Below, piece by piece: positions 31,741 to 31,836 of a stretch of 64,000 bases of DNA (position 1 is the first letter of the stretch; the number at the start of each line of letters is the position of its first letter). The DNA is from Eledone cirrhosa (lineage: Eukaryota): assembly GCA_964016885.1 (NCBI GenBank), contig OZ024745.1, positions 131,936,001-132,000,000 on the forward strand, read 5' to 3'. The position numbers and the translations under genes are program-made. The notes beneath the pieces are model-generated. The model ran no database searches. It was not told the origin of the DNA and was given only the letters and a program-made list of their open reading frames with translations.

Positions 31741-31836
31741 TTTATAAAACACACTTTGTATTTTATCTGATGAGGGCGTACCAAAGTTTTTGGTACCCTT
31801 GAAATATATATAATAGAATAAATATGGTTTTATAAA
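31741..31836 (+). ncRNA. Type I hammerhead ribozyme with intact core
   Basis: Distal stem I TTTATAAAAC/GTTTTATAAA (10 bp) and proximal TATTTTAT/ATAGAATA. Core CTGATGA 31767-31773; stem II GGGCGTACCA/TGGTACCC; GAAA 31801-31804; palindromic stem III ATATATAT; AUA cleavage triplet. Confidence 0.75.

What the first reader, a model, noticed from the sequence alone, without database searches (positions are those of the whole stretch)
31741..31836. Best candidate active hammerhead, whose stem III is a TA-microsatellite-like palindrome
Seen: intact CUGAUGA/GAAA core, long stem II, and a two-part stem I (8 bp, internal loop, then a perfect 10 bp). This is the layout that allows loop II-stem I tertiary contacts. 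Stem III is ATATATAT, predicted to cleave after AUA (~31812). It lies antisense to the presumed MOGS intron, so it would not cut that pre-mRNA. Inference: it may act as a monomer or through dimerisation via the palindrome.
Basis: partly seen in the sequence, partly recalled or inferred. Interest (0 to 1): 0.75.

Follow-up and report, generated by a model that had tools for sequence, protein, structure and literature searches.

The report
Hammerhead tail of Hydra-type Penelope element
This self-cutting-RNA motif is real but ordinary: it is the leftover tail of a jumping gene with thousands of copies in this genome, it likely cuts only when two copies pair, and this lone copy is predicted to fold worse than most of its sisters.

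Summary
The hammerhead motif is present as described. It is the 3' end (pseudo-LTR) of a Penelope-like retrotransposon of the Hydra clade. The window copy is a 5'-truncated, gene-less 323-bp piece between two (TA)n runs, antisense in the 412-kb first intron of MOGS. A 26-mer of it has 5,295 exact matches in the genome. About 39,700 further motifs fit a related pattern. Stem II and the stem III palindrome covary across subfamilies. Sister subfamilies use other self-complementary 8-mers, so the palindrome is conserved, not its TA-microsatellite look. Stem II is too long for the textbook loop 2–stem I contact. In folding models, 44 of 53 sister copies beat this one, so 'best active candidate' is not supported. 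Insertions end at two sites about 53 and 148 nt past the cut site, and only 29 end at it. This fits the known two-site internal priming on uncut or re-ligated RNA. Hammerheads in Hydra elements are published, and this scan has reported this kind of element in this genome before. Cleavage and expression are untested. One lead remains: a C·pyrimidine mismatch in stem II, kept in 16 of 16 hand-picked copies.

The parts
31638..31960 (+). 5'-truncated 3' end (pseudo-LTR plus tail) of a Hydra-clade Penelope-like element; no coding sequence
   Evidence: 88% match over 31637-31977 to the 3' end of ORF-bearing copy L045; boundaries
31580..31637 (.). (TA)n run at the left junction (insertion target)
   Evidence: sequence
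31958..32003 (.). (TA)n run at the right junction (insertion target)
   Evidence: sequence
31741..31750 (+). stem Ib, 5' strand (pairs with 31827-31836)
   Evidence: not shared with all sister subfamilies
31759..31766 (+). stem Ia, 5' strand (8 bp with 31813-31820)
31767..31773 (+). hammerhead core C3-A9
31774..31800 (+). stem II: G-U, G-U, G-C, C-C mismatch, 8 bp, 3-nt loop
31801..31804 (+). core G12-A15.1
31804..31811 (+). self-complementary 8-mer (stem III; 2 bp as monomer, 8 bp in a double hammerhead)
31812..31812 (+). H17 = A; predicted cut site lies 3' of it
   Evidence: hammerhead numbering; A in 139 of 140 copies of the main cluster (the search patterns partly force this)
31813..31836 (+). 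3' strands of stems Ia and Ib with internal loop
31860..31872 (+). first family 3' end site (about +53 from the cut); read through in this copy
   Evidence: 35 of 75 arms end here
31955..31962 (+). second family 3' end site (about +148); the end used by this copy
   Evidence: 35 of 75 arms end here
42279..42718 (-). coding part of MOGS exon 1 (host gene; intron 1 runs leftward over the element and out of the window)

Best explanation
This is the hammerhead motif in the terminal repeat of a Hydra-clade Penelope-like retrotransposon, left here as a lone, truncated copy inside a (TA)n run, and it likely cuts RNA only as a double hammerhead and likely does nothing at this locus. Shown: anatomy, copy number, linkage to a reverse transcriptase plus C-terminal GIY-YIG reading frame, (TA)n junctions, two fixed 3' ends, covariation. 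Inferred: in tandem element transcripts the self-complementary 8-mers of two copies pair to build stem III, possibly with help from the element's protein; reverse transcription starts at two internal sites about 53 and 148 nt downstream of the cut site, on RNA that is uncut or re-ligated, so nearly every insertion carries an intact motif whether or not it is ever used.
For: Copy number: 5,295 exact matches to a 26-mer spanning the cut site, 0 for the reversed control. Linkage: longer copies carry RT and GIY-YIG fragments upstream (GIY-YIG E=0.0021 in 1 of 5 fragments, below Pfam's cut-off); L045 has the motif at both ends of the frame. Hydra motifs read from the translations: RWR, DKT, CxCx5C linker, no CCHH, CxxC and CxH near the end (against PMC8557442). 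Palindrome: 94 of the first 100 listed matches of a relaxed pattern are self-complementary with Watson-Crick or G-U pairs, only 12 of them pure TA (counted by eye). Covariation: 7 of 8 stem II pairs and 2 of 4 palindrome pairs change on both sides; score 0.393 against at most 0.186 for slid controls. Ends: 70 of 75 arms end at one of two sites; 15 of 17 two-arm loci use one of each. Read-through: 17 of 30 ORF-start copies extend more than 20 nt upstream of the cut site, 3 of 30 start within 10 nt of it. Models: active monomer fraction 1e-6 for this copy, 6e-4 for a common sister; active dimer +6.7 kcal/mol for this copy against -1.4 and -6.9 for two sisters; a natural adjacent pair in L045 reaches 0.046. 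Published: PLE hammerheads cut poorly and as dimers (PMC4209133); an anole PLE starts reverse transcription at two internal sites, does not need cleavage, and its hammerhead needs protein (PMC11167929).
Against: No cleavage was measured. The folding models omit core and tertiary energies, so only the ranking means much, and a slipped helix may be rescued by tertiary folding. The 16 aligned rows were hand-picked and related, and the search patterns force part of stems I and III. Changes in the palindrome are mostly transitions, which keep pairing fairly often by chance. 29 copies do run into (TA)n at the cut site against 7 at a control site. Rfam and Pfam RT models did not hit. Clade placement rests on motifs, not on a tree. 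The repeat unit in L045 is about 3.6-3.8 kb, longer than the '<3 kb' usual for Hydra.
Confidence: 0.85

Rival explanations
1. The motif is a fast monomeric hammerhead stabilised by a tertiary contact between stems I and II, either the textbook loop 2 contact or a new contact at the C·pyrimidine mismatch in stem II.
For: Two-part stem I with an 8-bp inner helix recurs across subfamilies; C10.4 faces a pyrimidine in 16 of 16 aligned copies and A10.7 is invariant while neighbours covary; U1.7 is kept in 14 of 16; AUA is a natural cut triplet (PMC1636495, abstract).
Against: Stem III is 2 bp in a monomer; loop 2 varies in length and sequence and lies 12 or more positions out; stem Ib is replaced or lost in sister subfamilies; adding one pair to stem II lowered activity in a tested hammerhead (PMC3088659, passage); this copy ranks below 44 of 53 sisters.
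Confidence: 0.07
2. The TA palindrome has a second job: cleavage leaves an RNA ending in (UA)4 that anneals to the nicked (TA)n target and primes reverse transcription.
For: The element inserts in (TA)n; 29 copies run into (TA)n at the cut site, 17 of 20 examined truly stop there; a control site gives 7.
Against: 29 against 5,295 intact junctions; 70 of 75 arms end 53 or 148 nt further on; the cut site offers 8 nt of TA microhomology against about 4 at the control, which could explain the excess without cleavage; the commonest sister subfamily has a GC-rich palindrome yet also ends in (TA)n at two downstream sites.
Confidence: 0.04
3. The copy has been co-opted to regulate MOGS or an antisense RNA.
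For: It lies in MOGS intron 1, about 10 kb from exon 1.
Against: Antisense; one of thousands of 95%-identical copies; the intron is 412 kb long and full of repeats; its changes are predicted to weaken the fold.
Confidence: 0.02

Closest known systems
Hammerheads of Hydra-clade Penelope-like elements (Craig et al. 2021, PMC8557442; read: passages, section 11, supplement part 2 with Files S1-S2, and search hits in the protein files)
   Same: C-terminal GIY-YIG, DKT, CxCx5C linker, no CCHH, (TA)n target, type I hammerhead near the 3' end with a short stem III; many listed motifs also have U at 11.1 opposite U or G.
   Different: Stem II has 12 positions with a C·pyrimidine mismatch (listed ones have 3-7 bp); stem III is an even 8-nt palindrome; RWR instead of RWK; unit about 3.6-3.8 kb; the hammerhead listed for Hydra-1_Obim is a different sequence.
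Minimal and palindromic hammerheads of metazoan PLEs (Cervera and De la Pena 2014, PMC4209133; read: parts 1-2 of 4)
   Same: In pseudo-LTRs, long helix II, small palindromic helix III, mostly solitary truncated copies, nearby pairs on opposite strands, predicted dimer action.
   Different: No G10.1-C11.1 pair in this subfamily; longer helix I (8 bp plus a distal helix).
Poseidon element PAc of Anolis (Frangieh et al. 2024, PMC11167929; read: parts 1-2 of 4)
   Same: Two internal reverse-transcription start sites downstream of the hammerhead define a tail; cleavage is not reflected in insertion ends.
   Different: The tail here is about 95 nt, not 30-40 nt, and both sites lie upstream of the start codon.
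Canonical extended type I hammerheads such as Schistosoma Sm-alpha (as described in PMC4209133 and PMC6155905, passages)
   Same: Type I topology, two-part stem I, intact core.
   Different: They have a 4-bp helix II whose loop docks on stem I; that geometry is absent here.

Membership tests
Hammerhead ribozyme, type I | Core CUGANGA, GAAA, UH | tested here: met
   CUGANGA intact in 60 of 68 scored arms, 7 of 75 not scored
Hammerhead ribozyme, type I | Helices I and II around the core, supported by covariation | tested here: met
   7 of 8 stem II pairs change on both sides; stem Ia 98% paired but with one-sided changes only
Hammerhead ribozyme, type I | Stable helix III in a monomer | tested here: inconclusive
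   2 bp only; A15.1-U16.1 probability 0.003 in the model; 8 bp possible in a dimer
Hammerhead ribozyme, type I | Self-cleavage after H17 | not testable with these tools
   needs an assay; no RNA run was listed
Canonical extended type I hammerhead | Helix II of about 4 bp with loop 2 docking on a helix I of about 6 bp | tested here: not met
   helix II has 12 positions and helix Ia 8 bp; not filed here
Dimer-type PLE hammerhead | Short self-complementary stem III/loop III | tested here: met
Dimer-type PLE hammerhead | Located in the pseudo-LTR of a PLE | tested here: met
   L045 carries it at both ends of the reading frame; 17 of 30 ORF-start copies have upstream repeat beyond the cut site
Dimer-type PLE hammerhead | Cleaves as a dimer, not as a monomer | not testable with these tools
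   modelled only
Hydra clade of PLEs | [quoted passage not shown] | tested here: met
   order in L045, L046, L049; Pfam GIY-YIG weak hit, RT not hit by Pfam; RT recognised by likeness to printed Hydra proteins
Hydra clade of PLEs | DKT motif and CxCx5C linker; CCHH absent; CxxC and CxH near the end | tested here: met
   read by eye from translations
Hydra clade of PLEs | N-terminal RWK motif | tested here: inconclusive
   RWR in L045, a conservative variant; one copy read
Hydra clade of PLEs | Insertion into (TA)n | tested here: met
   junctions
Hydra clade of PLEs | Phylogenetic placement of the RT | not tested
   reference proteins were not available as inputs

The most novel reading that the evidence does not exclude
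The long-armed hammerheads of these Hydra elements replace the textbook loop 2 contact with a new one: stem I docks on a conserved C·pyrimidine mismatch four positions up stem II (next to an invariant A-U pair), giving an undescribed tertiary architecture shared by tens of thousands of motifs in this genome.
Probability: 0.12. Interest if true: 0.55.

Novelty: new member of a known kind. Interest (0 to 1): 0.2.

Why it matters
As a locus it matters little: it is one truncated copy among thousands. As a family it gives a large natural series for two open points about Penelope-like elements: whether their hammerheads need a partner or a protein to cut (subfamilies differ by 7 kcal/mol in modelled palindrome strength), and whether the two start sites seen in vitro for one lizard element are used one per DNA strand (15 of 17 two-arm loci here have one end of each kind).

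Tried and rejected
Rfam: the whole-window scan was swamped by microRNA models hitting (TA)n and showed only the best 150 of 457 rows; the narrow scan gave no hammerhead. Cut-site priming through the TA palindrome: rare, see rival 2. Cut site as the 5' end of the RNA: 31 matches start at (TA)n plus the post-cut sequence; 6 of 20 examined still carry the upstream half and the rest cannot be told from microhomology; no pile-up among 30 ORF-start copies. RNA editing as the source of the two G's in stem II: G at 10.1 is common (41 of 68 scored arms) and GG occurs in 4 of 68; downstream of the cut A>G and T>C are equal, 15 and 15, in 35 arms; not supported, but stem II itself was not tested for this. 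An apparent 5' truncation hotspot near 31689 was dropped: it may reflect divergence from the single reference used. Lunse et al. 2017 on dimer cleavage could not be read; it is cited only through a review passage. Six paper searches listed no study of this family's hammerhead; subscription papers and bioRxiv supplements were not visible, and secondary-structure figures in PMC4209133 supplements were not seen and may show similar long-stem variants. A second, nearer exon 1 for MOGS was not searched for.

Full report
Observation. The motif is at the stated place on the + strand. Stem Ia (31759-31766 with 31813-31820) has 8 bp and stem Ib a perfect 10 bp. The core is intact, the palindrome is 31804-31811, and the predicted cut follows A31812. 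The 98-nt stretch folds better than all 200 shuffles (z -3.84). Rfam has no hammerhead match here even at E 10. Stem II in the active register reads G-U, G-U, G-C, a C-C mismatch, then 8 bp.

Host context. A reading frame at 42278-42727 on the - strand ends in the MOGS N-terminal motif. The Pfam MOGS N-domain continues from its position 11 at G000:C5:131,566,250. Donor, acceptor and phase join in frame. The motif therefore lies antisense in an intron of about 412 kb, 10 kb from exon 1. I did not look for a nearer alternative first exon.

It is a repeat. A 201-nt query gave 3,555 candidates, of which 40 were scored; the best are 95-97% identical. A 26-mer across the cut site has 5,295 exact matches. 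The window copy runs from 31638 to 31960 between two (TA)n runs. [quoted passage not shown] L045 carries the motif at both ends of the frame, and its upstream repeat runs on into the frame's start. The translations show RWR, DKT, a CxCx5C linker, no CCHH, and CxxC and CxH near the end. These match the Hydra clade of Penelope-like elements, whose members target (TA)n and all carry hammerheads (PMC8557442). Pfam hit GIY-YIG weakly in 1 of 5 fragments and the RT in none. No tree was built. The genome is probably of an octopus type; that rests on earlier notes of this scan and was not tested.

The palindrome. A relaxed pattern with four free positions in stem III matched 39,699 further places. Among the first 100 listed, counted by eye, 94 are self-complementary with Watson-Crick or G-U pairs: 59 with a GCGC centre, 20 AUGU, 12 AUAU, 2 ACGU, 1 GUGC; 6 are not. 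On 16 hand-picked copies spanning the subfamilies, 7 of 8 stem II pairs and 2 of 4 palindrome pairs change on both sides; the covariation score is 0.393 against at most 0.186 for slid controls. The rows are related and the patterns force the outer palindrome pairs, so this is support, not a probability. Self-complementarity is what is kept, not the TA repeat. This is the known signature of dimer-type hammerheads (PMC4209133; review passage).

Tertiary layout. The canonical contact uses helix I of 6 bp and helix II of 4 bp (PMC4209133). Here loop 2 is 12 positions out and varies between subfamilies, and stem Ib is not shared by all of them. What does recur is 3 bp, then C opposite C or U (16 of 16 rows; C-C in 122 of 140 copies of the main cluster), then more helix with an invariant A at 10.7. 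This could be a docking site; that is speculation and forms the novel case.

Is this copy the best candidate? In nearest-neighbour models its two G's at the base of stem II shift the register so that core base A9 pairs. The active monomer fraction is 1e-6 against 6e-4 for sister L002. Of 75 position-sampled arms, 53 could be scored (the rest lacked an intact core or a constrained pair); 44 of 53 rank higher, median about 60-fold higher. The active double hammerhead costs +6.7 kcal/mol for this copy, against -1.4 for L002 and -6.9 for a GC-palindrome sister; a natural adjacent pair in L045 reaches a fraction of 0.046. The models omit core and tertiary energies, so only the order is informative. 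No second copy of this family lies in the window. AUA was the slowest of four triplets in one viroid hammerhead (PMC1636495, abstract only). I compared this copy with its family, not with the window's other hammerheads.

Where insertions end. I fetched the first 68 of the 5,295 matches (58 loci) and found 75 arms. Thirty-five end about 53 nt past the cut site, 35 about 148 nt past it, and 5 elsewhere; 15 of 17 two-arm loci have one end of each kind. This sample cannot show ends at the cut itself; a separate search found 29 such places, 17 of 20 examined being true stops, against 7 at a control site with shorter TA homology. Among the 30 best ORF-start copies, 17 extend more than 20 nt upstream of the cut, 3 start within 10 nt of it, and 10 start downstream. 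The template therefore usually spans the junction: uncut tandem RNA or a re-ligated circle, which these data cannot separate. This parallels the anole element, where two internal start sites define the tail, cleavage is not needed, and the hammerhead needs protein (PMC11167929). Sister subfamilies show the same two ends at about +43-52 and +130-150. A predicted hairpin ends 16-18 nt before each site in the window copy (no control run), a lead taken from earlier notes.

Earlier notes. My Hydra reading came, before the notes that name it. Those notes report the same kind of element in this genome, including one with a (UA)n stem III 10.2 Mb away. They are unchecked and not counted as support.

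Verdict. A real hammerhead motif of a known kind, in a known class of element, at an unremarkable locus. New member of a known kind; interest 0.2.

Noticed in passing
window 32408-32431 (-) and 61825-61848 (-): Two minimal hammerhead motifs of a different repeat family (3-bp stem II, tiny stem III); a third copy lies in L046.
   Followed up: no
window 56961-56988 (-): Another core match with a 4-5 bp stem II; family not determined.
   Followed up: no
window 8132-10610 (+) and 61130-61627 (-): Broken non-LTR retrotransposon with RVT_1 and zf-RVT hits and a C-terminal part that looks like a restriction-enzyme-like endonuclease (recalled likeness); a second fragment near 61.1-61.6 kb.
   Followed up: partly
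window 42278 to G000:C5:131566240: MOGS intron 1 is about 412 kb long.
   Followed up: partly
L045:4245-4430: A partial hammerhead ending at the palindrome sits 74 nt before a full one, a natural arrangement that could form a double hammerhead (modelled fraction 0.046).
   Followed up: partly
window 31692-31731 (+): A hairpin just upstream of the ribozyme (flagged by a weak Rfam hit); many inverted pairs seem to turn round near it, but the count was not reliable.
   Followed up: partly
window 31824-31847 and 31912-31944 (+): Predicted hairpins ending 16-18 nt before each of the two family end sites; the first overlaps the 3' strand of stem Ib and so competes with it.
   Followed up: partly
L072-L100: The GC-palindrome sister subfamily has a stem II of about 15 bp and made up 59 of the first 100 matches; endonuclease fragments 41-49% identical lie beside 7 of 30 loci.
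   Followed up: partly
window 48454-49664 (+): Tandem array with a unit of roughly 50 nt.
   Followed up: no
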